DNA from: a virus
Virus record (IMG/VR): IMGVR_UViG_3300045988_154277
Direction: 5' to 3' (one strand)
Length of the DNA: 64,000 nucleotides
Part shown: in pieces, positions 2,106-50,387 of the stretch
Layout: each line of letters opens with the position of its first letter
Position numbering within the stretch: position 1 is the first letter of the stretch
Made by a program: the position numbers and the translations under genes
The notes under the pieces: generated by a model
What the model saw: only the letters and a program-made list of their open reading frames with translations
Told to the model about the DNA's origin: nothing
Database searches by the model: none

Positions 2106-3146
2106 TCATTTCTTCTCAGTATCAGGGGTTGGTTGTTCTTCAGGTTGAGCTTCCTGTTGTGGTTGTTCTTCCTGCGTAGCAACACTGTAGCCCTGTGCTT
2201 TCTTGGCGATCTCAGTAACCAACCTACGGAACCGTTGTTCCACAGATTTCAGGTACTTGATATCGTTGAAGATGATCCTGGTGTACACGAATACAGCTTG
2301 TGATTCAACGGTAGGTCCAGCATCATTACGGAACCTGTTGTTCGTAAGACCAGAGACCAGTTTACGAGTCTCCTTACTTACAGTTTTCAGGTTGGTAAGA
2401 ACACTGTTGCCTGCTTGCATACAAGATTTGATCTTGCTATCCACTTCTACGAACCTATCGTACGACGTGAATCCAAGCGTCTGTAGGGAAGACATCTTGC
2501 GTTGACGATCTTCGTAGGGTGTTTGATAGTTGGGACCAACCTTCATACCACCCGCTGGAACTTTTGAGTTGAACCTCTGCAGATATGTTGCACGTAAGCT
2601 ATCGATCGGAGCCGTTGGGAGAGACGGTTTCACCACATCATCGTACGTTACCTCGAAGTGTTTCTGCACGATCTCACACGTCTTGATAAAGCGAGAAGCA
2701 GAGGTCGAATGGAACTTCTCATTCTGCATCGACTCGACTTTGTCTTTGATGAACGCGAGTTGCTTCGTGTAGGAACGTTGACTACGAGAGAAGAACGCTT
2801 CTGCGAAATCCAACACCTTGGAGACGATCGTCTGCAGAGCGTGAATGAACGCAGTGATCCCTTTCTTCACAACACCACCGATTTCGCGAGCGGTTACTTC
2901 GATACCATACTGCGCAAGTGTATTACCGTAAAGAGACTCCACAGAACGAGTATACCCGTACTTCTGGATCACAGTATCGAGTATGGTGAGATGCTCGATC
3001 GAGTGCAAGATCTCTTCTGCTGTTCGGATCGCGTCTTCTGCTTCATTTATGGTGCTAACGAGCATACACTCAGCAGCGATCGCGTCCTCGATTGAGAAGA
3101 GATGGTCGTTCTTGGACGGAACGAGATTTTCAAATCCAAAACGCAT
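2106..3146 (-). CDS. helical protein, paralog family member A (346 aa)
   Basis: N-terminus MRFGFENL... and KYGYTRSVESLYGNT block are shared with the 246-aa and 323-aa neighbours. Confidence 0.6.
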   Translation of the reverse strand: MRFGFENLVPSKNDHLFSIEDAIAAECMLVSTINEAEDAIRTAEEILHSIEHLTILDTVIQKYGYTRSVESLYGNTLAQYGIEVTAREIGGVVKKGITAFIHALQTIVSKVLDFAEAFFSRSQRSYTKQLAFIKDKVESMQNEKFHSTSASRFIKTCEIVQKHFEVTYDDVVKPSLPTAPIDSLRATYLQRFNSKVPAGGMKVGPNYQTPYEDRQRKMSSLQTLGFTSYDRFVEVDSKIKSCMQAGNSVLTNLKTVSKETRKLVSGLTNNRFRNDAGPTVESQAVFVYTRIIFNDIKYLKSVEQRFRRLVTEIAKKAQGYSVATQEEQPQQEAQPEEQPTPDTEKK

Positions 3147-3228: not shown

Positions 3229-3969
3229 TTACTTAGCCGCGTTCTCTTCCGGAGCAGCTTGGTCAGCATTCTTGTCTTTCGACTTGTCGGCACCACCTGC
3301 ACGCTTCGCGGCAGCGATGAACGAGTTGGCAACTCGGATGACGTTTCTGTCGTCCTCGACCGCCTTCTTGATGGCATCACGCAGCTGTTGAATGTATTCA
3401 TCAGTAGCTGCATTCTGCGCTTCTTTGAGCTGATCTTCAAGTTGACTTTTTGTCTTCCCAAGTTCATTGACAGCCTGCTTCAGTTTATTGAGAGCAGCCG
3501 TGAACTTACCTTCATCGGTAATCTTACCATCGATCACAGATCCGCCTTTGATTTCGAACGGACCTTTGAACTTCAGCGAGTTCAGAGCAGAAGCAGTACG
3601 TTCTTTCTGGTTGAAGAGCCATTTGAAGAAATTCGTAACTTTCGCCCAAAGATCCTTCAGGATCTGCTTGATCTTCTGACCGAGACCCTTCTTGGCCTCT
3701 TCGTTCTCAGCTTCCATAGAAGCGGCGCTGCTGAAGTTCTCTCCATAGAGAGCTTCCAGAGAACGAGTCACGCCATATTTCTTGATGCACTTGCTGATGG
3801 CGTTGACGTTGTCATAAGTGCGAACCGTAGCGGTGAGTTCATGACACAGATCCAGGACATCGGAAGCAGCCTGATTGAACTGGATCAGAGAATCCAGGTA
3901 CTCATACGAAAGTTCACCAGAAGCTTTCGGAGCCATGCCCAGATTTTCAAAACCAAGATTGATACCCAT
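3229..3969 (-). CDS. helical protein, paralog family member B (246 aa)
   Basis: MGINLGFENLG... and KKYGVTRSLEALYGEN; paralog of the 2106-3146 product. Confidence 0.6.
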   Translation of the reverse strand: MGINLGFENLGMAPKASGELSYEYLDSLIQFNQAASDVLDLCHELTATVRTYDNVNAISKCIKKYGVTRSLEALYGENFSSAASMEAENEEAKKGLGQKIKQILKDLWAKVTNFFKWLFNQKERTASALNSLKFKGPFEIKGGSVIDGKITDEGKFTAALNKLKQAVNELGKTKSQLEDQLKEAQNAATDEYIQQLRDAIKKAVEDDRNVIRVANSFIAAAKRAGGADKSKDKNADQAAPEENAAK

Positions 3970-4123
3970 GAGTATTCACTCCTGTAAAGATGTTTGTACG
4001 TACATTTGCGAGATGATCATCACACACAAGAAGTCAAATGTAGTCTGAAGAGATAGACATACACGTAACCTCAACACATATGATGTCACCGTGAGACATG
4101 TTACAACTACACACTGTCTTGGT

Positions 4124-5050
4124 TTAGGAGTCCGTATCCATGAGACCGTACGGATCATTCGTCGCCACATCAAGATCTGATGCTGTGGTCGTAATGTCCT
4201 TTTCTGATACATTGCGTGTCTTGAAGTACCGGTAGTCCCACGTTACTTCCTGAAGCTTCTTGTACAGTACATTCAGGATCTTCTTAACACAGTTGTAGTA
4301 CCGTGTATCATCTGTTGTCAGTTCAAACTCTTGCATACACAGCGTGACAAGACGATACGTGTCGTGTTTACAAATGTATGTGTCTCGATTCCACACGGGG
4401 TAGTTTGCATTCAGAAACTCACAACAAGTACAATACTTATCTTCCGTGTAAGTATCCGGATCTTGTAAGTAACGTGTCAATGCTCTGTTGTATAGCGTCT
4501 TATAGAACTTATCGACAACATGGTTGATCGCGGTTGTGTAAAGGGCATGCTCTTTTTGGAACCCTTTATCGGTCGCTTCTTGTTCGTCTTTGAACGTATC
4601 AATGCGAGCATCTGCACAACAACCAAATATCTTCTTGATGATACCAGGTTCTGCGATGTGTTGTGTGCAAAGATCCATCACCCATTCAGGTAGCGGGTGA
4701 AACGCAGGTTGTTGTAGTGACTTTTGATTGGGTTCGTAGAACGATTTGGCGATACTTTCTACGGTGTATGGTATACAGTCGGGGTTGTCGATATGACATG
4801 TTCTAACCCAAGGGTCGCTGTTTTTATGTAGCCGATACATGATCTGGTCAACTACTGCTTCGTAGTTGATTTGCTCCGGTACAGGGATGATCTCTTTGAG
4901 AAACGTTATCAGAGTGTTTCGAAAGTTAGCGTCTACGGACGCTGGTATCTTGACATACCCATAGTTTCTCCAGACACTGTTCGCAAGTGGTTGGATCAAC
5001 CCGTCGATGGTTGCTTGGAATTCTTCTCTTGTTACGATGTTGTTCTCCAT
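4124..5050 (-). CDS. hypothetical protein (308 aa; start moved to MENNIV)
   Basis: ORF 4124-5083. Internal ATG at 5050 has a GAGGAG RBS and removes the overlap with the upstream gene. Confidence 0.5.
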   Translation of the reverse strand: MENNIVTREEFQATIDGLIQPLANSVWRNYGYVKIPASVDANFRNTLITFLKEIIPVPEQINYEAVVDQIMYRLHKNSDPWVRTCHIDNPDCIPYTVESIAKSFYEPNQKSLQQPAFHPLPEWVMDLCTQHIAEPGIIKKIFGCCADARIDTFKDEQEATDKGFQKEHALYTTAINHVVDKFYKTLYNRALTRYLQDPDTYTEDKYCTCCEFLNANYPVWNRDTYICKHDTYRLVTLCMQEFELTTDDTRYYNCVKKILNVLYKKLQEVTWDYRYFKTRNVSEKDITTTASDLDVATNDPYGLMDTDS

Positions 5051-5063
5051 AATGCTCCTCTTG

Positions 5064-5453
5064 TCATCTGTTGAATATCCCAAATCTTCTCTTGATCTTC
5101 ACTTTCACCGTTACCTTGGATAACCCAACCAAGTACATTTTGAAGTAGGGTTCTCCGTAGTTGCAGCAATCTCTGTTATGTTTGTTGATCTCTTCTACTA
5201 CACCAAGTGCAGCTCCCATCTGTTTTAACAGACTGTAATTCACGACACGAAGAGATACGTTCAGACTGTACTCCAACACCTTGTCGTGATACATCTCCTC
5301 CACACATCGACGATATGCATCGTGAACGAGGTCGTAGATACATCTGGTGATCTCATCACTTGGGTTCTTCGCATTCTTGATGCGGATCGACATGTTCTTC
5401 AATTGTTCTTCTTGTTTCTGGTAAACAAGATCGTAAAGTTGTTTGGCATCCAT
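5064..5453 (-). CDS. hypothetical protein (129 aa; start moved to MDAKQ)
   Basis: ORF 5064-5561. The upstream part overlaps a promoter-like AT-rich element (5480-5510), and an AAAGGA RBS precedes the ATG at 5453. Confidence 0.4.
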   Translation of the reverse strand: MDAKQLYDLVYQKQEEQLKNMSIRIKNAKNPSDEITRCIYDLVHDAYRRCVEEMYHDKVLEYSLNVSLRVVNYSLLKQMGAALGVVEEINKHNRDCCNYGEPYFKMYLVGLSKVTVKVKIKRRFGIFNR

Positions 5454-27906: not shown

Positions 27907-30900
27907 ATGCCATTCACATTCGATATGTCACCGAGTGAAGAGCGTCTTCTCTACGACAAGTTCTTCCGGACGAATATGTTCCGTAGGATCAATGATCTTA
28001 CGAGATTGTGGAACCGAGAGGATCTTGTTGAATACCCCGTAGGGAGTATGCTTCACTTGATCGACGATAACTTCTTGATGAACCATCCTGTTGTGTTGGT
28101 TCCCGATACCTCTGGTTGGTCTATGACCAGAAAACCAGACCGTAAGTTCGTGATGCACATCATAGAACCGGTACCTGCAACAGCGATCCCTCTTACAGAA
28201 ACCTTCGCTCTACCTACCTCAGGGGTGTCTGTTACGATCTTGAACTTCAAGAAGCGTAATCAGAACCTGATGCGTCCTGTTGTGAAGATGGAGGATTTTC
28301 CGAGTCCGATGCGTCCTGAAGTACAGAGTATCATCTCGTACAACGCACTTTACCGTGCTCGTATCTTTGGACTGTTGCGAGGATATCGTCGGTTCAATTA
28401 CATCTTCACCAACATCTTCAATACCATCTGCTCGATCGGAACGGGAAGACGACATTTCATCCCGATCCCTGTCGGAGATAAGGTCTTTGATCGAAACAAG
28501 TTCATGACCTCTTTTATCAAACACGATAAAGGTTCTCTGAAACTTGCAGAAGATCCGTGGTATCTGTTCATGGTTCACTTCATGGGGTGGTTGAACACCC
28601 AAAACACACCCTCTCTGTTCGAGAAAGTCCCTGAGAAGTATTGGGAATATATCAACTTCGTTCTGTATACAAGAACCAAAGTTCTTGTTCTCAATATGAA
28701 GCTCTTGAAAGAGTTCAACGAAGGGAACAAGATCCTTTGGCGGGTGATGAATTTGATCAACCTGATGGCTGAGGAAGGTCATCAAGCTGCGATGCAGGAC
28801 TTCGGTGATGTTCCGGTTGCATGTGATACACAAGAAGAACCAGGAGAACTCGCTGTTCAAGCGGATACTCCTTTTACAGAAGAGAAGGAACCGATCCATG
28901 TCACTACTCAAGAGACTGCTTCTGATCGTGACAACCAAGATCAGAGTACTGTTCCACAAGGATCCCCCAGAGAGGAAGATCAGGTAAACGAGGTTACCTT
29001 ACAGCAACCTCCTGCGGAACCTGCCCCCAAACAACAGGAACCCCCGTCTCCTGTGAAGACGATGTTCACTTCTCCTACCAGGAGGAAACCCATCCCGTAT
29101 CTCACCACTCAGCAGAGAGTCAAACGGGAGACTGATGAGTTCGAAAAGTATCTCGATTTCGAACCTCAGACGCTGACGATCGATCCCAAGTGGTTAGAAG
29201 TAGAGATGGTGGAGGGGAAACAGAATGCTCCCGAGTTCAAAGAGAACATGACGGAAGAGGAACAGAAAACCTCCAACCAGAAGTTCTTGAATGAGATTGA
29301 CGAAGGAGCGAAGACTCATATCGAGAATGATCAACATCTCAACAACTATCAAGCAGAGCAAGCGAAGAAACTCGCTGAAGCATACAAGAACATCAAAGTT
29401 GGAGATAAGACGATCGAACAGATCATCCAGGAAGTACCAGATGACACGGTTGCAACCAACACGTTGAATTTCTTGGAGGACGATCCGGATATCGTGGATA
29501 AGTCCATGTTGAAATCTTCCGTTGCTACGTTCGAACACGACTACATGAAGAAACTCTTCCTTCGGGATATGGTGATGAACCTCACCTCATTCAACAAACA
29601 AGGGATGTTCCTGAAGCAAGTGGATGTGGAAGACGTCAGCGATAGTCTGAACCAGCTGATGGAGTACAAAGTCACCTACGAGGATACAAGCAAGAAAACG
29701 CACGTCATCCGATTCAAACTTCCCAAAGTAGATGAGAGAGGATACTGTTATGTGAACGGTACGCTTAGCGTCCTGAAGAAACAGAGAGTCCCTCTTCCGA
29801 TCTGTAAGATCAACCCGACAACTGTTACGTTGACCAGCAACTACAACAAGTATCTGGTGGTGCGGAATGTCACGGTGGCTCACAGTTATATCAACTACAT
29901 CGAGTCGATCCTGAACAAAGGCAATACACCAGAACATCCTGTTGTTGTTCAGCTGAACACCAAGACTTGGAACGATGTGACACTCCCCTACGAGTACACC
30001 TCGTTGGCGAAGAAATACCTCAGCATCAAACTCTCGTTGACAGAGACAGTTGAGTTCTATTTCAACCTGGAAGGAAGACACCAGTGGTTGAGGGATGTTG
30101 GGGGTCTCTTACCAGAGGACTTGGACCTCGTAAAATCGATCGAGAGCGACGCGAAATGCCTTGCTGTAGCGTACGTTGGGAAGCGTCTAATCGGGTTCAT
30201 AGATATCAACAACATATTTACCGTGATCAACTTGGACGACCATACAACCTCTGCTTCTACGACGATCATCGATTTCTTGTGTGAGCAGTTGAATGTAGCT
30301 CCGACTCCGCTGTCAGAGTGGACGGATTTCAAACTGTTGGAGACAACGGTTCCTGTGATCTTCGCTCTCTGTTATCGGTACGGTCTGAGTGAGATGTTGA
30401 ACTACACCAAGACACAGTATCGTATCTTGGAATCAGGAGAACGTTCCTATCGGAACTGGTCTGATGTTGTAATACGGTTCGCAGATAAGACGCTGATCAT
30501 CCCGAGGTCTCCTCTGGTGAACAGCATGCTGTTCGCTGGGTTGAACTTCTTCCAGTTGAACAAGATCAATATGGAAGAGATGGACAGTAAAGATATCTAC
30601 TACGATCTTCTCCAGAGCAAGAAACGTTCTGTTCATTTCCTGAAAGGGATCGATAACTTCTTCGATCTGTTCGTGGATCCGATCTCCAGAGAGGTTCTGG
30701 AACAGATGAAAGAACCAACCAATGCAAGAGATATCCTGATCCGTGCTACTCAGCTTCTGACGACAGAAGATCACAAACCTCAGGCTTCCAGCACCAACTT
30801 CCGATTCCGTTCTTATGAACAGATCAATAGTGCGATATACAAAGTACTGAGTCGATCCTTCGCCAACTACAGAAGCAAGAGTGTAGGCGCTACTCACAAG

Positions 30901-31269
30901 TGGAGTATCGCAGATTACGAAGTGCAGCAGATGGTTATGCAGGATCAGTTAAAAGAGAATGTCGACATCATCAACCCCATCAACGACATCAAGTATCAGG
31001 AGGAGTTCTCCCATGCTGGATTCGCTGGTGGACGGAAGAGTCTGCAGAGTTTTACAGTCCCAGATCGTCAGTATCCGAAAGATGCTGTCGGTATCATCTC
31101 AGAGGCTACCGTCGATAGTGCGAAGACTGCATTCGCAGCGTCCACTTCGATGGATCCGACGATCGTCAATATGCGTGGGATGACACTCACCTCTAACCCA
31201 GATGAGTTGAAACCTACTCAGATCTTGTCGATCAGTTCTTTGATCATGCCTGGAGTGACGCAAGATGAT
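27907..31269 (+). CDS. multisubunit RNA polymerase beta-like subunit, exon 1 (about 1121 codons)
   Basis: GAAGGAGG RBS. NTPEHPVVVQLN resembles beta ETPEGPNIGLIN, and the C-terminal SLIMPGVTQDD resembles beta SLIPFLEHDD. The ORF is closed by a TAA that lies at the 5' edge of group I intron A. Confidence 0.6.
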
Positions 31270-31681
31270 TAACATTATAACAGTCCGGTATACCCGAAGA
31301 GGGTGTGCTTGTTACCATTCCTAATACTAGGAAGTTCTTAAGGTTCTACATACTACAACGTAGCTCAAAAGGCAAGCGTGATAGTCGCGAAAGCAGAAAG
31401 AAATGTAGAAATGACCTATGCTGAAATAAAAGCCTGTTACAAGGTGCTAAGGGTTGCTAACAAGGAATTACTAGTAGCGAAGTCTTGTCTATAAGACAGG
31501 ATGTGCTCAACGACTAGGGGGTTAATCGCCCCGTACCCGCCAAGTGGCGCTGGGAAACGGAATGGACCCTAACAGATTAAGCTGAGGGTTTGACATAGTC
31601 TCTACATCTACGGAAAGCGTAGAGCAGAACTTAATGTTCGGGTGATGAGTAACGATCATCACTGAAGATAAAGAGCAAGCG
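31270..31681 (+). ncRNA. group I intron A (ORF-less); core to about 31622 plus a possible 3' extension
   Basis: P7 halves GACTAG (31512-31517) and TAGTC (31596-31600). Q/R region GGATGTGCTCAACGACTAGG parallels Tetrahymena GGAUGCAGUUCACAGACUAA. P9 hairpin CTACG gaaag CGTAG (31608-31622). Extra hairpin GTGATGA gtaacga TCATCAC (31642-31662). Confidence 0.65.
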
Positions 31682-31690
31682 TCAAAATTT

Positions 31691-32047
31691 AAACATTACT
31701 GAACCGTATACTGGAAACAGTGTGCGTGCATAGACCCTTTAATTGTCTGGGAGTTCCTAAAGCCTGTTGGACCACAACGTGACTTGTAAAAGTGAGCGTG
31801 ATGGTGACGAAAGTAGAAAGAATCAACAGGATGTCTCATGCTGCAATAAAAGTCTACTTCTAGTAGATGCTAAAAGACAGTAACAATGGATAATCAGCAG
31901 CCGAGATCCTTCACGGAGGATCAGGTTCATCGACTAGACCTGAGAAGGTCGTACCCCTCAAGTGAGGCTGCGGAAATAAGGGTCCGCTAAACGTATCGTA
32001 AGATACGCATGTGTGAGATATAGTCAGTACATCATGCGAAACGCATG
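31691..32047 (+). ncRNA. group I intron B (ORF-less), homologous to intron A along its whole length
   Basis: R: TTCATCGACTAGACC (31932-31937 is GACTAG). S: GAGATATAGTCAG (32021-32025 is TAGTC), nearly identical to Tetrahymena AAGAUAUAGUCGG. P9: CATGCG aaa CGCATG (32033-32047). Aligns with intron A from AACATTA onward. Confidence 0.65.
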
Positions 32048-33241
32048 AGCTGGGTAACCATTCCCGGGACGGAAGTAACGACTCCGTCTGAACACAAAAG
32101 CGTAAGTATCCACCTCTCTCACTACCTTCCCACTGAGAAGTGTGAAGTGTCTCGTCTTCGTACAGGTTACGAGAAGATCGTAGCCCATCGTTGTAATCCT
32201 CCCTTCGCTTATGCTGCAGAAGCAGATGGTGTGATCGAAGCTATCGATCAGGAAGCGAAGATCCTTCGTGTGAAGTACAAAGATAAAACCGTTGCCGTAT
32301 CGTTCGGTGATGATTACACTAAGAACGGCGGTGGTGGATTCTACTGTACTCAGAACATCGTAATCAACGGATACGAAGAAGGAGATAAGGTCAAGCGTGG
32401 AGATATTATCATCTACAACGACCGGTTCTTCACTCCTGATCCGTACAGCAAACAAGTCAATTGGAACATCGGTGTGTTGAAAGACGTCGTTCTTATCGAC
32501 GGTGACAGTACACTGGATGACAGTTGCATCATGGATCATGATCTTGCTAAGGATCTTGCATTCAACCCTGTCCATATCCGTGACATCGTGGTCACCAAGA
32601 AGACTACGATCCACAAATATGCATCCATAGGAACAGAGGTCAAATCGATCGATCCTCTGATGATCTTCGACCAGTCGGAACTGAATGAAGATATGTTCGG
32701 TGGACTGGATGAAGATGCGATCCGTCTGTTGGGTAAGATCAACAAGAGAACTCCGAAAGCCAAGTTCACTGGTAAAGTAGTCGCACTGGATGCGTTCTAC
32801 ATCGGAGGGATCCAAGACATGGCTCCTGGTGTTCGTGGGTTGGTCAGTCTGATCAACAAGATGAAATATCAGAAACACCAAGCTGCGAAAGGAACTGTCA
32901 ACCAGGACAACTACCCTGTTTCTCAGAACATCACTCAGTCCAACCGGATCGGTATGACCGAACTGGATGAAGAGACGGTGATCTTCCGGTTCTATATCCA
33001 GCAGGATATGAAGATGAACGGTGGAGACAAAGTGGAGTTCGATAGTTCCTTGAAATCCGTCTGCACAGGTATCTCGAACAACTCCTGGGTGAGTGAAGAT
33101 GGTTCGTTGGTAGGACATGCTCTGTTCTCCACGATCGGTATCGACAACCGTATCATCAACTCTCCTAAGATCGAAGGGATGTGCAACAAGATCTTGGAGA
33201 CTGCGGAACAACAGATCCTCAAGATGTATTTCGAAGAGTGA
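32048..33241 (+). CDS. multisubunit RNA polymerase beta-like subunit, 3' exon (about 398 codons; exact 3' splice site uncertain by a few nt)
   Basis: Matches to E. coli beta: [32 protein letters not shown] versus [58 protein letters not shown] versus [43 protein letters not shown]...NKILET versus GDKMAGRHGNKGVISKI...GQILET. The ATG at 32045 used by the ORF track lies inside intron P9. Confidence 0.6.
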   Translation, partial: [397 protein letters not shown]

Positions 33242-33246
33242 ATAAG

Positions 33247-33284
33247 GTACTGTAGGGTGATGGATGTCCATCACCCTACAGTAC
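33247..33284. terminator. perfect 38-nt palindrome hairpin
   Basis: GTACTGTAGGGTGATGGA tg TCCATCACCCTACAGTAC. Confidence 0.5.
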
Positions 33285-33288
33285 AACT

Positions 33289-33672
33289 TCACAGTTTGTA
33301 GTAGATCTCCGATTCATCATACGGAGTATTGTCCTTGATCCAATAAGACCAGAACCGTTGAAGTTTCGTCTTACCATACCGGAAGAACGACACTTGTTCG
33401 ATCTCCACGAACCCACGGATCGTTTTTGTTTTATCCCCCTTGACACGGGTTGGAGGATCGTATCGCAACGCGTACGTCAAGATCTTGGTATCACGTTTCA
33501 ACGACTCCTTGAAGAAATACGTCGTCAGGACTCGCTGACGGATCGCATGACCCAAGAACTTCTGTAGGATCGGTCCGATCTTGGCTGTGTCGTTCGTGTG
33601 GAATGCTCCGAACCGATAGCTGGATCGGAGGTGCTGGTCCATAGCGGACAAAGTACGGTAGACGTAGAACAT
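33289..33672 (-). CDS. hypothetical protein (127 aa; start at MFYVYRTL)
   Basis: ORF track gives 33289-33798. AAGGAG RBS precedes the ATG at 33672, which sits 2 nt after the TGA of the upstream gene. Confidence 0.5.
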   Translation of the reverse strand: MFYVYRTLSAMDQHLRSSYRFGAFHTNDTAKIGPILQKFLGHAIRQRVLTTYFFKESLKRDTKILTYALRYDPPTRVKGDKTKTIRGFVEIEQVSFFRYGKTKLQRFWSYWIKDNTPYDESEIYYKL

Positions 33673-33674
33673 CC

Positions 33675-34112
33675 TCAACTCCTTAAGATTGTTGTATAAT
33701 TGGTCTGATCGACATGTTTCAATTTCACGATATCCGTATTCGTAAGCCAGTCGTAAGTCCAGTTCAGGCAGAGCATATCGTCTTCTGACTTCCCCCATAC
33801 GAATGATACACGGATCTCAGCTTGTCCGCAGAGGACGCCTTGCTCAGCAACCTGTTCTTGATACCGGCAGATCTTGTTGATGTCGTATGCATATACCGTA
33901 TACTGCTTGAACTTCAAGAAGTGATACAGGTTCGTAAACTCTCGGTTGATGAGTTGTTCCAACTCATCCAGTCGTACACGACGAGTGAGCATATTCTTGC
34001 TCTTATCGTAGAGAAGATCTGGTCGTTTACGGATCTTCAGCCCGATCTGGTCAGTCGTGTAGTGGATCGCTTGCGTGATGGTGGTGTTCTCCTTGTCTGT
34101 TTTCGTTGTCAT
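33675..34112 (-). CDS. hypothetical protein (145 aa)
   Basis: ORF; stop abuts the next ATG. Confidence 0.5.
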   Translation of the reverse strand: MTTKTDKENTTITQAIHYTTDQIGLKIRKRPDLLYDKSKNMLTRRVRLDELEQLINREFTNLYHFLKFKQYTVYAYDINKICRYQEQVAEQGVLCGQAEIRVSFVWGKSEDDMLCLNWTYDWLTNTDIVKLKHVDQTNYTTILRS

Positions 34113-34223
34113 GTTTTGATTCCTCTTGTGTTGTGGTTGAGTGTACTTAATGGTGTGAGTAACTTAAGTATTTACCAACTACGATTCACCCTATGCGAAC
34201 AAACTTAACATAGGAGAATAACG

Positions 34224-35588
34224 ATGAATATTCTGAGTGACATGGACACATTCGACAGTGGTGACAACCCGAATTTCAACACGGGAACACTGCTCGATCT
34301 ACCCACTGGTAAATACGTACAAGGTGTGGATGATGAGTGGTATCTAACCGGTGGATTACCGATGCACATCACGGTATTCGGTGGTCGTAATGGACATTTC
34401 AAGAGTACGATCACCAACGCTTGTGCTCAACGTATCACCGCGATCTATCCGGACAGTGACCTGATCGTGGAGGATACGGAAGACAGTCTCACCAAAGACA
34501 AAGACCGCGCTTATGCGATGGCTGAAGAGCTGGCTCCGCAAGTGAATAAGAATAACGTTCAGTGGTTGAAAGGCATCGACTACGATCTCGACAGCTTCGA
34601 TAAGTGGTTCAAAGACTACTGTATCAAGAAAGAAGCCAATGCCAAAGATCTCATGGTGGAAACTCCGTTCTACGATGAGAAGACTCAAAAACCTCTTCGT
34701 GTGATGATCCCCACCACGATGATGATGGACAGCATCACTGAACTGGTAACCGCAGTGGAAGAGGACATGGTCAACGGTGAGAAGACTCAAGGGATCGGTG
34801 ACCCGAAGAACAATACTGTCGCTATGGTGGATGGCAACAAGAAAACACTGTGGATCCGAACCATGCGTCGTCGTTGTCAGAAGTACGGGATCATCTTCGT
34901 TGGTACAGGACATTACGATAAGATCCTAGAGATGGATCCTTACTCACCGACTCCCAAAGAGACCATCGTCGGGAAACAGTCGTATAAGTTGAAACGCTGC
35001 GGTAGCAATCTCAAGTTCCTAGCATCCATCTATGCGATCACCAACGCTACCCTCCTTGTCGATAGCAACAAAGAACCGCTTTACGACGATGGTACTTCTG
35101 CATCGAAGGATATCTTCCAAGTGGATGTTACGTTGGAACGTTGTAAGACAGCTTGCTCTGGAACAACAACTCCGTTCGTTGCATCGCAGACCAAAGGATT
35201 CCTGAATGCTGTTACCAACTACCACTACCTCAGACTGAACAACTACTTCGGTCTGAACGGCAACAAGCAAAAGCAGCAACCGTTCCTGATGCCAGATACT
35301 ACGATCTCTCGCAATACCGTTCGTCAGATCGCAGGATCCTCTCCTCAAGTGAGACGTGCACTGGAACTGGCTGCACAGTACTGCTTCATCAAGAACAACT
35401 GGAACACAAGAGATCTTCATGTGGATTTCAGTATGGATCCTGCCAAGGTCTTCGATATCCTGAACAGCGATAAGAAGAAGACATTGGTTCAAGACATCCT
35501 CAACACCAGAGGATACTGGACCTATGGTCAGTGTGACATCCCATACATGAGTCTGATCCGCATGTTGGAGCTTGTAAAACAAGGATAA
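34224..35588 (+). CDS. RecA-superfamily recombinase, UvsX-like (454 aa)
   Basis: TVFGGRNGHFKST resembles the non-canonical UvsX P-loop (GPSKSFKS type); a second block MIPTTMMMDSITEL. AGGAGA RBS. Confidence 0.4.
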   Translation: MNILSDMDTFDSGDNPNFNTGTLLDLPTGKYVQGVDDEWYLTGGLPMHITVFGGRNGHFKSTITNACAQRITAIYPDSDLIVEDTEDSLTKDKDRAYAMAEELAPQVNKNNVQWLKGIDYDLDSFDKWFKDYCIKKEANAKDLMVETPFYDEKTQKPLRVMIPTTMMMDSITELVTAVEEDMVNGEKTQGIGDPKNNTVAMVDGNKKTLWIRTMRRRCQKYGIIFVGTGHYDKILEMDPYSPTPKETIVGKQSYKLKRCGSNLKFLASIYAITNATLLVDSNKEPLYDDGTSASKDIFQVDVTLERCKTACSGTTTPFVASQTKGFLNAVTNYHYLRLNNYFGLNGNKQKQQPFLMPDTTISRNTVRQIAGSSPQVRRALELAAQYCFIKNNWNTRDLHVDFSMDPAKVFDILNSDKKKTLVQDILNTRGYWTYGQCDIPYMSLIRMLELVKQG

Positions 35589-35595
35589 TACATAT

Positions 35596-35633
35596 CTAAC
35601 ACTAGAGTGGCAACAACACCACTCTAGTGTTAG
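35596..35633. terminator. 15-bp stem hairpin
   Basis: CTAACACTAGAGTGG caacaaca CCACTCTAGTGTTAG. Confidence 0.5.
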
Positions 35634-35640
35634 ATGTTTA

Positions 35641-36108
35641 TTACGCGGGGATGAAGTAGAAGAGTTTCATCCGATTCGGTGTCTCGGTGGTAACGATGTG
35701 TGTCACACAATACATAAGACGTCCATCCGAAGCGGAGAACTTTTGTTTGCGGATCAGGATCTGACCCTGCATCTGCTCGATGGTATCACCCTCTTCCAGA
35801 TGATCTTTCTGAGCACACCAGTCGGTCCAGAGAGATTCTGTGATCGCAACTGCGTTGCTCGGAACAGAAGGATGCTGGTGATCACTGAAGAACAGTCCGT
35901 CTTCCCAGTAGTAATTGTTACCACTGCCAGGTTCGTTGGTCACGTGTTTGAGCGCCAGTTCCACCGTATCCACAAGACTGAGGATCTTGTTGTCCACAAC
36001 AGCACGACTTGCGGTACTGATGTCGCTCACCATCTCACCAGCGAGAACGGTCTTGATGTACGCTTCCACAGTCTGTTTCAGCTGTGCCTTGAATTGTTCT
36101 TTCGTCAT
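35641..36108 (-). CDS. hypothetical protein (155 aa)
   Basis: ORF divergent from the fibre operon. Confidence 0.5.
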   Translation of the reverse strand: MTKEQFKAQLKQTVEAYIKTVLAGEMVSDISTASRAVVDNKILSLVDTVELALKHVTNEPGSGNNYYWEDGLFFSDHQHPSVPSNAVAITESLWTDWCAQKDHLEEGDTIEQMQGQILIRKQKFSASDGRLMYCVTHIVTTETPNRMKLFYFIPA

Positions 36109-48149: not shown

Positions 48150-50387
48150 ATGTCTGCTATTGACAAATACCTGAAGCAGCTTGAAACTGCGTTCGCCAAT
48201 ACTGGCAAAGCTGGTGATCTGGTTGGTATCGGTCGCTCGACGTACGACGCTGTTGGGAAATACCTTACCACCCGCAACATGATCAAGCGTGGCGCCTATG
48301 AACAGATGTCCATCAGCAACGAATCCATGAGCTTCGAAACTGCGATGAACGCGCAGGGCGTCGATGGTCTGAAAGACCTCGTTGAGAGTTGCGGCGTTCC
48401 GCAGGCTTACGTCAAGGACTGCTGCAAGACCATCCTGAACATCATGAACCGTTGCTCGCAGGGTGCGGCCGCTGCTTGGCAGCAGCAGAACCTCCGTGCG
48501 GATCACACGGCCAACGGTCAGGCGGAAGCTCGTCCGCTCTCCTCGATCTACAGCTCCGACGTTGCTGGCATTCTGAACAGCACCGCTGTGGCCGGTCAGG
48601 AAGCGTTCGGTACCAACGTCGATATGGCGGTTCCGGATATGAAGGTTGCCATCACGGTTGCCATCATGGACTTCCATGTCCGTCTGATCCCCCGCGTTAT
48701 GCCGACCCGTTCCACGACTCAGCCGAACGTCTCCTACACCAAGGAGTGGCTGGAAGTTTACGATCTCACCGGCAACACCAAAGACAGCCAGCGTCTCGTT
48801 GACCTGTACGCCGATCCGTCCTTCGCTCGCAATGAGCTGAAACTGATCGAAGTCAACCCGGCCAACGATCCGGAACAGAAGTTCATCAACGGTGATGGTA
48901 CGCTCAAGTTCGGCCCGAAGGCCAACATCCTCGAGCTCTCCACCCGTGAGGACAAATACGGTTACAGCCATATCAACCGCACCGACCTGATCGCGGACAA
49001 CGTCCAGATCAAGTTCGTTCGTGTCGCTCTGACCTTCAACGGTGGCGAAGCGGAATACTTCGACTGCGAAGTTCCGATCAGCAAGAACCGTCTGACCCGT
49101 ATGGTCAACGCCAACGACTCTGCGATGCGCAATGCAGACATCAAGTTCCGTACCTACCTCCGCAAGAGTGCGATGATGGCGAACGGCTCTGCGTCCGGCA
49201 TCCTCTCGAACCTGAGCGACAGCGAAGCGTTCGTCCTTGACTTCAACGTCAAGCCGAGCATCTCTCTGAAGTGGGGTATCGCGGACTGTCTTGCGGACGT
49301 CAGCGTCAGCGTTCGTCACGATATCGACAACGCTCAACTCAGCGGATTCGCGACCTCTCTGATGAGCAGCGGCGCTCTGAGCCTGATCGGTTATGAACTC
49401 GACGCTCGTTTCTCGGAAGAGAACCTGCGCAAGACCTCCATCGCGGTTATGACCCACCGTGTTCCGTTCTCGTTCGATATCCCGATCGGTCGGAACTATG
49501 TGTTCGATTACGCGATCGGTCAGGTCAATGCGGAAGAGAACGCCACCAACCTCACCAAGGTCATCGGTCTCGGTCAGGACAAGGTTGCGCTCGAACTCGG
49601 CATCCGTACCATCGAAGATGTCTACGATCGCATCCGTGCGGTCAGCCCGAACCCGGTCGATCGTCCCGAATATGTCGGCACCAACTATGTTGCTGGCGAC
49701 AAGGTTCGCCCGTCCATCTTCATCGGCGATCTGGATCTGACCAATCTGGAAACCATCCGTGATGCTGACCGTGCTGGCGACATCAAGCAGAAGGCCATCT
49801 CCATGCTGACCGCTGCTACCAGCCGTATCCTTCAGGAGTCCTTCCTGCAGCAGCAGCTCGGTGGTTCGACCACGGCTACCTTCAAGGGTATCACCAGCAT
49901 CGAGATCCTCGGCAACGTCATCGGTATGCCGCACATCCACGACCATATGTCCAAGGATGATGGTCGCAACGTCGGTGACGGTGTGGAATACGTTCTCGTT
50001 CTGCCGAACGGCGTGAAGATCGAGTTCGTGACCTCCACCTTCGACAGCATGCGCGACAAGATCGTCATGTGGCCGACCATCCCGAACAACACCGAAAGTG
50101 AACTGCACTTCGCTCACAACTGGGACTATGGGTGCATGGTTGCCCATTACACCCCGAGTGGTGAAGCGGCTCACCATCGTCTGTTCGGCAACATCCGTGA
50201 ACTGCCGATCGTCGTCAACCCGCTGGGTCTCATCATCCAGGTCAAGGGTATCGAGCTGGCGAACGGTATCGCTCTCGATGGCGTCGTCCGTCCGACCTTC
50301 AACGTCAACGTGGAAGGCTCGGTTGTCACGACTGTCAACGGAACGATCACCACGGCTCCGGAACAGGGTGGCACTGAAGAGCCCTGA
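48150..50387 (+). CDS. highly expressed, codon-recoded 745-aa protein; candidate major capsid protein (alternative: another very abundant structural or shell protein)
   Basis: AAGGA RBS. G+C and codon choice visibly differ from neighbours (CTG, CGT, CCG, GGT, AAC, TTC, ATC, ACC dominate). Size is typical of jumbo-phage major capsid proteins. A full-length antisense ORF (828 aa) is a GC3 shadow. Confidence 0.45.
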   Translation: MSAIDKYLKQLETAFANTGKAGDLVGIGRSTYDAVGKYLTTRNMIKRGAYEQMSISNESMSFETAMNAQGVDGLKDLVESCGVPQAYVKDCCKTILNIMNRCSQGAAAAWQQQNLRADHTANGQAEARPLSSIYSSDVAGILNSTAVAGQEAFGTNVDMAVPDMKVAITVAIMDFHVRLIPRVMPTRSTTQPNVSYTKEWLEVYDLTGNTKDSQRLVDLYADPSFARNELKLIEVNPANDPEQKFINGDGTLKFGPKANILELSTREDKYGYSHINRTDLIADNVQIKFVRVALTFNGGEAEYFDCEVPISKNRLTRMVNANDSAMRNADIKFRTYLRKSAMMANGSASGILSNLSDSEAFVLDFNVKPSISLKWGIADCLADVSVSVRHDIDNAQLSGFATSLMSSGALSLIGYELDARFSEENLRKTSIAVMTHRVPFSFDIPIGRNYVFDYAIGQVNAEENATNLTKVIGLGQDKVALELGIRTIEDVYDRIRAVSPNPVDRPEYVGTNYVAGDKVRPSIFIGDLDLTNLETIRDADRAGDIKQKAISMLTAATSRILQESFLQQQLGGSTTATFKGITSIEILGNVIGMPHIHDHMSKDDGRNVGDGVEYVLVLPNGVKIEFVTSTFDSMRDKIVMWPTIPNNTESELHFAHNWDYGCMVAHYTPSGEAAHHRLFGNIRELPIVVNPLGLIIQVKGIELANGIALDGVVRPTFNVNVEGSVVTTVNGTITTAPEQGGTEEP

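What the first reader, a model, noticed from the sequence alone, without database searches (positions are those of the whole stretch)
31623..31690. Inter-intron spacer cannot be a normal exon: stops in all three frames and a 7-bp hairpin, implying a micro-exon or an intron-A 3' extension
If intron A ended where its homolog B does (after its P9, about 31622-31624), the 66-68 nt up to the AACATTA box of intron B would be exon. But all three frames contain stops here (TAA at 31632, TGA at 31643, TGA at 31663), and the segment folds as GTGATGA gtaacga TCATCAC (31642-31662).

The simplest reading is that intron A carries an extra 3' peripheral hairpin and its omega-G lies further downstream, for example G31679 or G31681. 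That would leave only a 9-11 nt micro-exon (for example TCAAAATTT encoding SKF) between the introns. Phase bookkeeping works for 5' splice after T31269, 3' splice after G31681, second 5' splice after T31690, and final 3' splice after G32047. This yields ...VTQDD-SKF-SWVTIPGTE... in frame.

A micro-exon between twin introns, or two ribozymes that must cooperate to remove one insert, would be mechanistically interesting.
Basis: inference. Interest (0 to 1): 0.6.

Follow-up and report, generated by a model that had tools for sequence, protein, structure and literature searches.

The report
Two self-splicing introns, 17-base exon
The "spacer" is the tail of one self-splicing group I intron plus a real 17-base exon encoding an active-site motif of a giant phage's RNA polymerase, followed by a second related intron; this layout has precedents in other phages and is interesting but not new in kind.

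Summary
In detail: 31623-31690 has stops in all three frames and a perfect 7-bp hairpin at 31642-31662.

The host gene is the phiKZ gp178-type virion RNA polymerase beta subunit of a jumbo phage. It carries two ORF-less group IA introns about 62% identical to each other.

- **Intron A** is 31270-31673 and ends at G31673.
- **The micro-exon** is 31674-31690, AGCAAGCGTCAAAATTT, encoding SKRQN plus two bases of Phe.
- **Intron B** is 31691-32100 and ends at G32100.

Both introns carry the same 3' extension of P9.1, P9.2 and an 11-12-nt tail. The flagged hairpin is P9.2 of intron A.

The spliced product reads VTQDD-SKRQNF-VSIHLSHY. It matches intronless homologs (DD-GKRANF-VNIHLSHY) without a gap.

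Natural alleles fix the boundaries. A genome 96% identical in the flanks lacks exactly 31691-32100. Other relatives lack intron A and read DD-SKRQN straight through. Others have both introns, or neither.

Cooperation between the ribozymes is not needed.

Precedents are the PhiPA3 intron at the same Asp-Asp site and the phage Twort orf142 introns, which flank a 23-nt exon.

The parts
27907..31269 (+). Exon 1 of the virion RNA polymerase beta-subunit gene (phiKZ gp178 homolog). It ends ...PGVTQDD, with the last base U31269 at the 5' splice site of intron A.
   Evidence: ORF. tblastn matches jumbo-phage RNAP beta subunits. phiKZ gp178 is annotated as RNA polymerase beta subunit / structural head protein. 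The exon end equals the DD position in intronless homologs.
31270..31673 (+). Intron A, an ORF-less group IA intron of 404 nt. P1 pairs exon GAU 31267-31269 with GUC 31283-31285 (U31269 with G31283). P2 is 31288-31308. P7.1 and P7.2 are present. The last base is G31673.
   Evidence: Rfam RF00028 gives 43.1 bits, E = 2e-9, below the gathering score of 50, and that alignment stops at 31624. RNAalifold finds covariation for P2, P3, P4-P6, P7.1, P7.2 and P9.2. Relatives L007, L008, L009, L011 and L012 lack it precisely. No + strand ORF of 40 aa or more lies inside it.
31607..31623 (+). P9 of intron A (UCUACG gaaag CGUAGA).
   Evidence: Helix 1 is 95.5% paired, and 5 of 6 pairs show changes on both sides.
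31627..31639 (+). P9.1 of intron A (GAAC uuaau GUUC).
   Evidence: Helix 2 is 93.3% paired, and 3 of 4 pairs show changes on both sides.
31642..31662 (+). P9.2 of intron A, which is the hairpin in the finding (GUGAUGA guaacga UCAUCAC). The 7-nt loop is conserved as (G/C/A/U)UA(A/G)CGA.
   Evidence: 7 of 7 pairs show changes on both sides. Covariance model R1 scores 31595-31673 at 90.7 bits.
31663..31673 (+). 3' tail of intron A (UGAAGAUAAAG), ending in the terminal G31673. The UGAA(G/C)A start of the tail is conserved across the family.
   Evidence: The 3' boundary is fixed by the A-less alleles and by L010, where the exon continues AGCAAGCGTCAGAATTTTGTC directly after ...GATAAAG.
31674..31690 (+). 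Micro-exon of 17 nt, AGC AAG CGT CAA AAT TT, encoding Ser-Lys-Arg-Gln-Asn plus the first two bases of Phe. Its last 3 nt (UUU) form P1 of intron B.
   Evidence: It matches DD-GKRANF / DD-SKRISF of intronless homologs. SKRQN is identical in the A-less alleles, encoded TCG AAA AGA CAA AAT. L004 encodes AKRLN with synonymous K, R and N codons. The spliced ORF has no internal stop.
31691..32100 (+). Intron B, an ORF-less group IA intron of 410 nt and a paralog of A (about 62% identical). P1 pairs UUU 31688-31690 with GAA 31701-31703. P10 pairs UUAC 31696-31699 with exon GUAA 32102-32105. P2 is 31705-31726. The last base is G32100.
   Evidence: Rfam gives 21.7 bits, E = 0.0055, and that alignment stops at 32048. 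L010, 96% identical in the flanks, lacks exactly these 410 nt. P1 and P10 covary.
32032..32048 (+). P9 of intron B (UCAUGCG aaa CGCAUGA).
32050..32067 (+). P9.1 of intron B (CUGGG uaaccauu CCCGG).
32068..32088 (+). P9.2 of intron B (GACGGA a guaacga c UCCGUC). It has the same loop as intron A's P9.2, and its stem differs from A's by compensatory changes.
   Evidence: R1 scores 32020-32099 at 83.4 bits.
32089..32100 (+). 3' tail of intron B (UGAACACAAAAG), ending in the terminal G32100.
32101..33241 (+). Exon 3. C32101 completes the Phe codon (TT + C), then VSIHLSHYLPTE... through to the stop codon.
   Evidence: The first 7 nt, CGTAAGT, differ from the B-less allele (TGTCTCC) only at synonymous positions and match the B-only alleles.

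Best explanation
The segment lies inside the virion RNA polymerase beta-subunit gene of a jumbo (phiKZ-like) phage. Two independent, ORF-less, self-splicing group IA introns sit 17 nt apart in the codons of the universally conserved motif D-D-x-K/N-R-x-N-F (E. coli RpoB EHDDANRALM).

Intron A is 31270-31673. It is inserted right after the Asp-Asp codons. Intron B is 31691-32100. It is inserted after the second base of the Phe codon.

Each intron has the standard group I core plus a family-specific 3' extension after P9. That extension is hairpin P9.1, hairpin P9.2 with a conserved GUAACGA-type loop, and an 11-12-nt tail ending in the terminal G. The region 31623-31690 is therefore the last base of P9 and a short linker, then P9.1, P9.2 and the tail of intron A (through 31673), followed by a 17-nt micro-exon (31674-31690).

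Splicing joins ...GAT GAT | AGC AAG CGT CAA AAT TT | C GTA AGT... to give ...VTQDD-SKRQNF-VSIHLSHY...

Each ribozyme recognises its own 5' splice site through a short P1: GAU/GUC for A and UUU/GAA for B. Intron B also pairs its AACAUUAC box with the first bases of exon 3 (P10).

**Shown here:** the boundaries, the conservation of the helices, the coding constraint on the micro-exon, and the independent presence or absence of each intron.

**Inferred:** actual self-splicing, the tertiary role of P9.1 and P9.2, and spread by gene conversion.
For: 1. **Homolog match.** Intronless homologs at 43-58% identity read DD-GKRANF-VNIHLSHY or DD-SKRISF-LNIHMSHY. Only the 17-nt exon model reproduces this with no gap, and it gives a 1506-aa ORF with no internal stop.
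2. **Natural empty sites.** L010 aligns to window 28697-31690 and 32108-36000 at 96% identity and lacks exactly 31691-32100. L007, L008, L009, L011 and L012 read GAC GAT TCG AAA AGA CAA AAT TT straight into intron B, with no intron A. L004 and L006 have both introns. L013 and L014 have none.
3. **Coding constraint on the micro-exon.** SKRQN is identical although 3 of 5 codons differ synonymously between alleles with and without A. L004 encodes AKRLN with synonymous K, R and N codons.
4. **Splice-site rules.** Both introns begin after a U paired to a G and end in G. P1 covaries: A has GAU/GUC, B has UUU/GAA, and L004 intron B has CUU/GAG. P10 of B shows a compensatory change.
5. **Conserved 3' extension.** P9, P9.1 and P9.2 are 92.9% paired in a MAFFT alignment of 15 introns, against 29-42% for slid partners. 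The covariation score is 0.879 against 0.155 or less. The figure is 96.8% in 26 distinct sequences after model-based realignment.
6. **Core helices.** RNAalifold on 12 full introns recovers P2, P3, P4-P6, P7.1 and P7.2 with compensatory changes.
7. **Old paralogs.** A-type and B-type introns form separate clades (73-94% and 68-98% identity within clades, about 60-63% between them), so they are not a fresh duplication.
Against: - No RNA evidence: splicing and its products are inferred from DNA only.
- Both introns score below Rfam's gathering threshold (43.1 and 21.7 bits against 50).
- P1 has only 3 exon-side base pairs in both introns.
- No convincing P10 was found for intron A. How its 3' splice site is selected among nearby G residues (G31664, G31667, G31673, G31675) is not explained structurally.
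- The model-realigned alignment (A5) is fitted to the structure and leans towards it.
Confidence: 0.9

Rival explanations
1. Intron A ends at G31679 or G31681, a 9-11-nt micro-exon encodes SKF, and intron B ends at G32047, giving VTQDD-SKF-SWVTIPGTE...
For: The phases are arithmetically consistent. Rfam's generic group I model ends its alignment of B at 32048.
Against: The product lacks the conserved K-R-x-N-F motif and carries about 12 extra residues relative to all intronless homologs. L010 lacks 31691-32100, not 31691-32047. The A-less alleles have 17 nt, not 9-11 nt, between DD and intron B. The sequence 32048-32100 is conserved as RNA helices with compensatory changes, not as codons.
Confidence: 0.01
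2. The whole 31270-32100 segment (or 31270-32047) leaves as one composite unit, as a tandem twintron does, and the spacer is a non-coding pseudo-exon left by duplication of an intron plus its flank.
For: Similarity between A and B continues past P9 into the spacer and into what looked like exon 2. Tandem group I modules that splice as one unit are described in fungal mitochondria (PMC12308204).
Against: Removing everything joins GATGAT to CGTAAG. This shifts the frame, hits a stop after 11 codons, and deletes the K-R-x-N motif. The 17 nt are under protein-level purifying selection. Each intron exists alone in related genomes. The post-P9 similarity is explained by conserved P9.1, P9.2 and tail, which are found in many single introns of the family.
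Confidence: 0.02
3. There is no splicing. The beta subunit is simply split into two polypeptides here, as jumbo-phage RNAP subunits often are, and the intervening sequence is decayed intron debris or another structured RNA.
For: Gene callers predict two ORFs. Database proteins P0001 and P0005-P0011 are exon-3-only products, and an ATG at 32045 opens a 398-aa ORF.
Against: The two-ORF reading loses the conserved K-R-x-N-F residues. The ORF starts differ between relatives and fall inside conserved RNA helices. The ribozyme helices are maintained by compensatory changes. The 17-nt exon is conserved at the amino-acid level in exactly the frame required by splicing.
Confidence: 0.03
4. In addition to normal splicing, the two similar ribozymes produce a substantial exon-skipped RNA (exon 1 joined to exon 3). 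This could occur through a hybrid ribozyme or through stepwise use of a distal 5' splice site, as in phage Twort orf142, and could have regulatory consequences.
For: There are precedents: Twort orf142 introns 2 and 3 flank a 23-nt exon, Coxiella 23S rRNA has a 34-nt exon, and engineered tandem Tetrahymena introns skip a short exon (PMC10136302). Here the introns are paralogs with near-identical core segments.
Against: The skipped product is out of frame and truncated. P1 guide sequences differ between A and B (GUC against GAA), and engineered tandem introns given distinct P1, P10, P9a and P9.2 splice-site recognition elements no longer skipped the exon (PMC10136302). No RNA data are available.
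Confidence: 0.15

Closest known systems
PhiPA3 gp210 intron in the virion RNAP beta-subunit gene gp211/209, the homolog of PhiKZ gp178 (Birkholz et al., Science 2024; PMC11620839)
   Same: The host gene family is the same. The insertion point is also the same as intron A: the paper places its intron immediately after the two conserved Asp residues (E. coli RpoB D675 position). More distant metagenomic relatives carry HNH-containing versions at this site, for example the 1558-nt intron in L015 with a Pfam HNH_3 ORF.
   Different: The window's intron A has no endonuclease ORF. A second, paralogous intron sits 17 nt downstream. The PhiPA3 sequence itself was not fetched, so its RNA structure was not compared here.
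Staphylococcus phage Twort orf142 introns 2 and 3 (Landthaler and Shub 1999, as summarised in PMC10136302)
   Same: Two highly similar phage group IA-type introns in one protein-coding gene, separated by a very short exon.
   Different: The exon is 17 nt here against 23 nt in Twort, and the host gene and phage lineage differ. Exon skipping is documented for Twort and untested here. Here natural alleles with A only, B only, both or neither are all seen.
Coxiella burnetii 23S rRNA tandem group I introns (as summarised in PMC10136302)
   Same: Two group I introns flank a short exon (34 nt).
   Different: That case is an rRNA gene with introns of different subgroups (IB2 and IA3). This one is a protein-coding gene with paralogous introns.
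phiKZ gp179 (HNH) intron between gp180 and gp178, predicted by Mesyanzhinov et al. 2002 (cited in PMC10914365)
   Same: It has the same 3' architecture of P9, P9.1, P9.2 and a tail ending ...CUGAACAUAACG. Model R1 scores it at 77.3 bits.
   Different: It lies in a different gene (the 3' end of gp180) and carries an HNH ORF. It is a single intron.
Tandem or composite group I twintrons of fungal mitochondria, such as Ophiostoma cox3-640 and cob-201 (PMC12308204)
   Same: Two group I modules lie side by side with a short intervening sequence. For cob-201 there is an 18-nt sequence whose status as exon or pseudo-exon is debated.
   Different: The cox3-640 modules appear to splice as one unit. Here the 17 nt are demonstrably coding and each intron is independent.

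Membership tests
Group I intron (Rfam RF00028) | Match to the family covariance model at the curated gathering score | tested here: not met
   A scores 43.1 bits (E = 2e-9) and B scores 21.7 bits (E = 0.0055) against a gathering score of 50. The model lacks this family's large P5/P6 insertions and its P9.1/P9.2 extension, so the shortfall reflects divergence of the periphery rather than absence of the core.
Group I intron (Rfam RF00028) | Conserved core helices (P3-P8 with the P7 GACUA/UAGUC pairing), supported by covariation | tested here: met
   RNAalifold on 12 introns predicts 74 pairs, 60 of them with compensatory changes, covering P2, P3, P4-P6, P7.1 and P7.2. P7 and P8 are read from the Rfam alignment and the sequence.
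Group I intron (Rfam RF00028) | The 5' exon ends in U, wobble-paired with a G of the internal guide sequence (P1) | tested here: met
   U31269 pairs with G31283 and U31690 pairs with G31701. The 3-bp P1 covaries between A (GAU/GUC), B (UUU/GAA) and L004 intron B (CUU/GAG). P1 is short.
Group I intron (Rfam RF00028) | The intron ends in a guanosine (omega-G) | tested here: met
   G31673 and G32100, at boundaries fixed independently by the empty-site alleles.
Group I intron (Rfam RF00028) | P10 pairing between the guide sequence and the 3' exon | tested here: inconclusive
   For B, positions +2 to +5 of the exon (GUAA) pair with UUAC 31696-31699. This is 6 bp in L009 and L011, with a compensatory change in L004. 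For A, no conserved pairing was found.
Group I intron (Rfam RF00028) | Guanosine-dependent self-splicing | not testable with these tools
   This needs in vitro transcription and splicing, or cDNA.
Subgroup IA (phage-type) group I introns | Extra helices P7.1 and P7.2 between P7 and the 3' strand of P3 | tested here: met
   Alignment columns 300-302 with 312-314, and 318-323 with 328-336, both with compensatory changes. Assignment to IA1, IA2 or IA3 was not attempted.
[quoted passage not shown] | Two related group I introns in one gene, separated by an exon of a few tens of nucleotides or fewer | tested here: met
   A and B are about 62% identical and 17 nt apart.
[quoted passage not shown] | Exon skipping alongside exon inclusion | not testable with these tools
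   No RNA data. The predicted skipped product is out of frame.
Twintron or composite intron spliced as one unit | No functional exon between the modules, so the whole insert must leave together | tested here: not met
   The 17-nt exon encodes the conserved SKRQN(F), and each intron occurs alone in relatives.
Mobile intron with a homing endonuclease (PhiPA3 gp210 type) | An intron-encoded HNH endonuclease ORF | tested here: not met
   No + strand ORF of 40 aa or more lies in 31270-32044. HNH ORFs do occur in family members L015 and phiKZ gp179.
Mobile intron with a homing endonuclease (PhiPA3 gp210 type) | Insertion immediately after the two conserved Asp codons of the vRNAP beta gene | tested here: met
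   Intron A starts right after GAT GAT (DD). The PhiPA3 site is as described in PMC11620839.

The most novel reading that the evidence does not exclude
The twin arrangement may be more than two selfish insertions. Both ORF-less introns lie within about 17 bp of the site that PhiPA3 gp210-type HNH endonucleases nick. They could act as stacked 'armour' that destroys the recognition site of competitors' intron endonucleases.

The 17-nt exon would then be a mosaic of two co-conversion tracts left by successive endonuclease-driven gene conversions.

In addition, the two paralogous ribozymes could give regulated or order-dependent splicing, including exon skipping, of an essential early-transcription enzyme.
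Probability: 0.15. Interest if true: 0.6.

Novelty: new member of a known kind. Interest (0 to 1): 0.38.

Why it matters
**Annotation.** Automatic gene calling splits this essential polymerase subunit into two ORFs and silently drops the 17-nt exon. That exon encodes the conserved K-R-x-N-F segment next to the catalytic-centre Asp-Asp. Rfam at its curated threshold reports nothing in the whole window. The covariance model built here for P9, P9.1, P9.2 and the tail finds these introns at 65-90 bits in jumbo-phage metagenome contigs, so such genes could be repaired.

**Biology.** The locus is a natural four-allele series (A+B, A only, B only, neither) at the same hotspot where an intron endonuclease was shown to mediate phage-phage competition. 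It also offers a second natural phage test case, after Twort orf142, for how two similar group I ribozymes only 17 nt apart avoid or use exon skipping.

Tried and rejected
- **Rfam at gathering threshold on the whole window:** no hits. Only relaxed scans revealed A and B.
this gives a 12-residue insertion relative to homologs. Intermediate candidates G32080 and G32086 were considered from the sequence and dropped once the K-R-x-N-F motif was seen to be missing.
- **Recent tandem duplication of intron plus 3' exon flank, with the spacer as a pseudo-exon:** rejected. A-type and B-type introns are separate old clades, and the post-P9 similarity is shared by single introns of the family.
- **P10 for intron A:** none in the classical register.
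- **A 7-bp complementarity between GCUUGUU (31307-31313) and the micro-exon start AGCAAGC:** present in the window but not kept in L004 or L017 (my inspection). Treated as coincidence.
- **AACAUUA (31271-31277) complementary to UAAUGUU (31632-31638):** weakened in L010 and absent in B. Treated as coincidence.
- **A tertiary partner for the conserved GUAACGA loop:** none identified.
- **Pfam on the exons and neighbouring ORFs:** no hits, and no free-standing endonuclease was recognised next to the gene.
- **Landthaler and Shub 1999 (PMC22036):** not held. The Twort details are taken from PMC10136302.
- **PhiPA3 locus:** not retrieved. It was not among the listed rows.
- **Weak R1 hit at window 50176-50271 (17.3 bits, E = 0.068):** judged to be noise.

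Full report
**1. What is at the coordinates**

The segment 31623-31690 lies between two matches to the group I intron model. These are at 31266-31624 (43.1 bits, E = 2e-9) and 31700-32048 (21.7 bits, E = 0.0055). Both are below Rfam's gathering score of 50, so the default scan of the window reports nothing.

All three frames of the segment contain stops: TAA 31632 and 31650, TGA 31663 and TAA 31669, TGA 31643 and 31646. The hairpin GTGATGA/gtaacga/TCATCAC sits exactly at 31642-31662 and appears in the minimum-free-energy fold, with z = -2.7.

**2. The host gene**

ORF 27907-31272 and ORF 32045-33241 together match the virion RNA polymerase beta subunit of phiKZ-like jumbo phages. Identity to Erwinia and Pseudomonas phage proteins is 34-36%. 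The phiKZ ortholog is gp178, annotated as RNA polymerase beta subunit and structural head protein.

Exon 1 ends in ...PGVTQDD. These are the two Asp residues of the RpoB motif EHDDANRALM. The E. coli numbering D675 is taken from PMC11620839.

**3. Where the exons really are**

Uninterrupted homologs read EHDD-PKRINFISIQ and DRDS-PNRTNFISIQ. Closer metagenomic relatives at 43-58% identity read DD-GKRANF-VNIHLSHY and DD-SKRISF-LNIHMSHY.

That has no K-R-x-N-F motif and is about 12 residues too long.

The missing motif is in the spacer, in another frame. AGC AAG CGT CAA AAT TT (31674-31690) encodes S-K-R-Q-N plus TT and is preceded by G31673. The Phe codon is completed by C32101, which is preceded by G32100 and followed by GTA AGT ATC CAC, encoding VSIH.

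The spliced ORF is 4521 nt and 1506 aa, with no internal stop. It reads VTQDD-SKRQNF-VSIHLSHYLPTE, a gap-free match to the homologs.

**4. Natural alleles confirm both boundaries**

| Allele type | Loci | Evidence |
|---|---|---|
| A only | L010 | |
| B only | L007, L008, L009, L011, L012 | |
| A and B | window, L004, L006 | |
| Neither | L013, L014 | |

- **L010** (IMG/VR UViG_3300045988_142450) is 96% identical to the window in the flanks. It aligns to 28697-31690 and then to 32108-36000. It therefore lacks exactly the 410 nt from 31691 to 32100, and reads AGC AAG CGT CAG AAT TTT GTC TCC ATC, encoding SKRQNFVSI. It retains intron A.
- **L007, L008, L009, L011 and L012** come from contigs of 23-361 kb and are about 80% identical at the protein level. 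They read ...GAC GAT TCG AAA AGA CAA AAT TT and then enter intron B. Intron A is absent, and the same five residues SKRQN are encoded with three different synonymous codons.
- **L004 and L006** have both introns. Their micro-exons are GCTAAACGATTAAACTT (AKRLN) and AGCAAGCGTCAGAATTT (SKRQN).

All four allelic states therefore exist. Each intron must be able to splice alone, and the 17 nt are under amino-acid-level selection.

**5. The spacer's hairpin is a conserved intron helix**

The alignment of A against B continues past P9. The hairpin loop GTAACGA is identical, while the stems differ compensatorily (GTGATGA/TCATCAC against GACGGA/TCCGTC). Both sequences then run into a similar tail, CTGAAGATAAAG| against CTGAACACAAAAG|.

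The same layout recurs in single introns at the Asp-Asp site of distant jumbo-phage contigs: L015, L017, L018, L020, L023, L028 and L031. That layout is P9, then P9.1, then P9.2 with a (G/C/A/U)UA(A/G)CGA loop, then a 10-13-nt tail starting UGAA(G/C)A and ending in G.

On an unfitted MAFFT alignment of 15 introns, the three helices are 92.9% paired, against 29-42% when the 3' partners are slid. The covariation score is 0.879 against 0.155 or less. All 7 pairs of P9.2 show changes on both sides.

A covariance model of this region (R1) finds 31595-31673 (90.7 bits) and 32020-32099 (83.4 bits), plus one weak 17.3-bit match (50176-50271, E = 0.068) judged to be noise. After realignment of 26 distinct sequences, 96.8% of cells are paired. 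That alignment leans towards the structure because it was fitted to it.

The region 31623-31673 is therefore intron, and the flagged hairpin is P9.2 of intron A. Intron B has the same extension at 32050-32100.

**6. Ribozyme anatomy**

RNAalifold on 12 full-length introns gives 74 pairs, 60 of them with compensatory changes. These cover P2, P3, P4-P6, P7.1, P7.2 and P9.2. P7.1 and P7.2 place the introns in subgroup IA.

P1 is short but covaries with the exon:
- Site-A introns pair exon GAU with GUC, with U31269 opposite G31283.
- Site-B introns pair UUU with GAA, with U31690 opposite G31701.
- L004 intron B pairs CUU with GAG.

In the window this is GUAA 32102-32105 with UUAC 31696-31699. It is 6 bp in L009 and L011, and L004 shows an A-U to U-A swap.

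No conserved P10 was found for intron A. Its choice of 3' splice site is not explained structurally.

Neither intron has an ORF. Family members L015 and phiKZ gp179 carry HNH endonuclease ORFs.

**7. History**

A-type introns are 73-94% identical to each other. B-type introns are 68-98% identical to each other. Identity between A and B is about 60-63%. They are therefore old paralogs, each tied to its own site, and not a recent tandem duplication.

Exons of the window and L010 are nearly identical except for a cluster at site B: CAA AAT TT|C GTA AGT against CAG AAT TT|T GTC TCC. All the differences are synonymous, and the window there equals the B-only alleles.

The 5' part of the micro-exon is AGC AAG CGT in genomes carrying A and TCG AAA AGA in genomes lacking A. 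The 17-nt exon therefore looks like a mosaic of two short co-conversion tracts, as expected if each intron arrived by gene conversion. This is inference. The B-side changes also create P10.

**8. Comparison with what is known**

[quoted passage not shown] That is site A.
- Phage Twort orf142 has two highly similar IA2 introns flanking a 23-nt exon, with exon skipping. Coxiella 23S rRNA has a 34-nt exon between two group I introns (both as summarised in PMC10136302).
- Engineered tandem introns stopped skipping the exon when all four of their splice-site recognition elements (P1, P10, P9a and P9.2) were made distinct (same paper). Here the P1 guide sequences of A and B differ. Skipping would give a frameshifted, truncated product.
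- Fungal mitochondrial tandem modules that leave as one unit (PMC12308204) are not the model here.

**9. Verdict**

Both 3' splice sites, the exon length, the frame and the predicted peptide are wrong. Cooperation between the ribozymes is not required.

This is a new member of a known kind: neighbouring group I introns with a very short exon, at a known intron hotspot of jumbo-phage RNA polymerase genes. It has annotation value, and it provides a useful natural allele series. Splicing itself remains to be shown experimentally.

Noticed in passing
L035 (phiKZ NC_004629.1, reverse complement of 181348-191507), locus coordinates 3723-5349: The phiKZ gp179 (HNH) element between gp180 and gp178 has the same intron 3' architecture, and R1 scores 5084-5162 at 77.3 bits. 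After ...CUGAACAUAACG| an open frame runs from 5163 to a TAA at 5347-5349. This looks like an unannotated second exon of gp180, about 62 codons long. The intron was predicted long ago, but ONT-cappable-seq saw no splicing (PMC10914365).
   Followed up: partly
L031 4168-4246, L033 4084-4161, L029 4123-4217: Model R1 finds further intron 3' ends of the same family (63-74 bits) about 1.1 kb downstream, inside the exon-3 part of the same beta-subunit gene in distant relatives. This is a third insertion site in the gene.
   Followed up: no
L016 about 2589-3043; L024 about 1621-2994: Other relatives appear to have introns at slightly different positions in the same motif: after DD-GKR in L016, and after PKRVN+AT (near site B) in L024. 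The DD-xKRxNF codons are an intron hotspot with at least three sites.
   Followed up: no
L011 and L012 (IMGVR_UViG_3300045988_163688, 361 kb; 90456-97592 and 263449-270585 reversed): The same locus occurs twice in opposite orientation on one 361-kb contig. This suggests an inverted-duplication assembly artefact or a concatemer rather than a real 361-kb genome.
   Followed up: no
window 31352-31455 and 31738-31833 (P4-P6 region of both introns): This part of both introns is 74-78% identical at the DNA level to unannotated stretches in Enterococcus, Lactococcus, Brochothrix and Enterocloster phage genomes. Related group I introns probably go unannotated there too.
   Followed up: no
Pseudomonas phage EL AJ697969.1 199344-201135 (hit H109): The gp178-homolog match is split into two pieces spanning about 1.8 kb for a 1.4-kb query. 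This suggests an intron of about 400 nt in the same region of phage EL's beta-subunit gene.
   Followed up: no
window 28780-29100 (about residues 292-398 of exon 1): Exon 1 contains a long acidic, Pro/Gln/Glu-rich low-complexity stretch (…DTQEEPGELAVQADTPFTEEKEP…QQPPAEPAPKQQEPPSPVKT…). It looks like a lineage-specific disordered insertion in the polymerase subunit.
   Followed up: no
window 50176-50271 (+): A weak match to the P9/P9.1/P9.2 model (17.3 bits, E = 0.068, GC 0.57). Probably chance.
   Followed up: no
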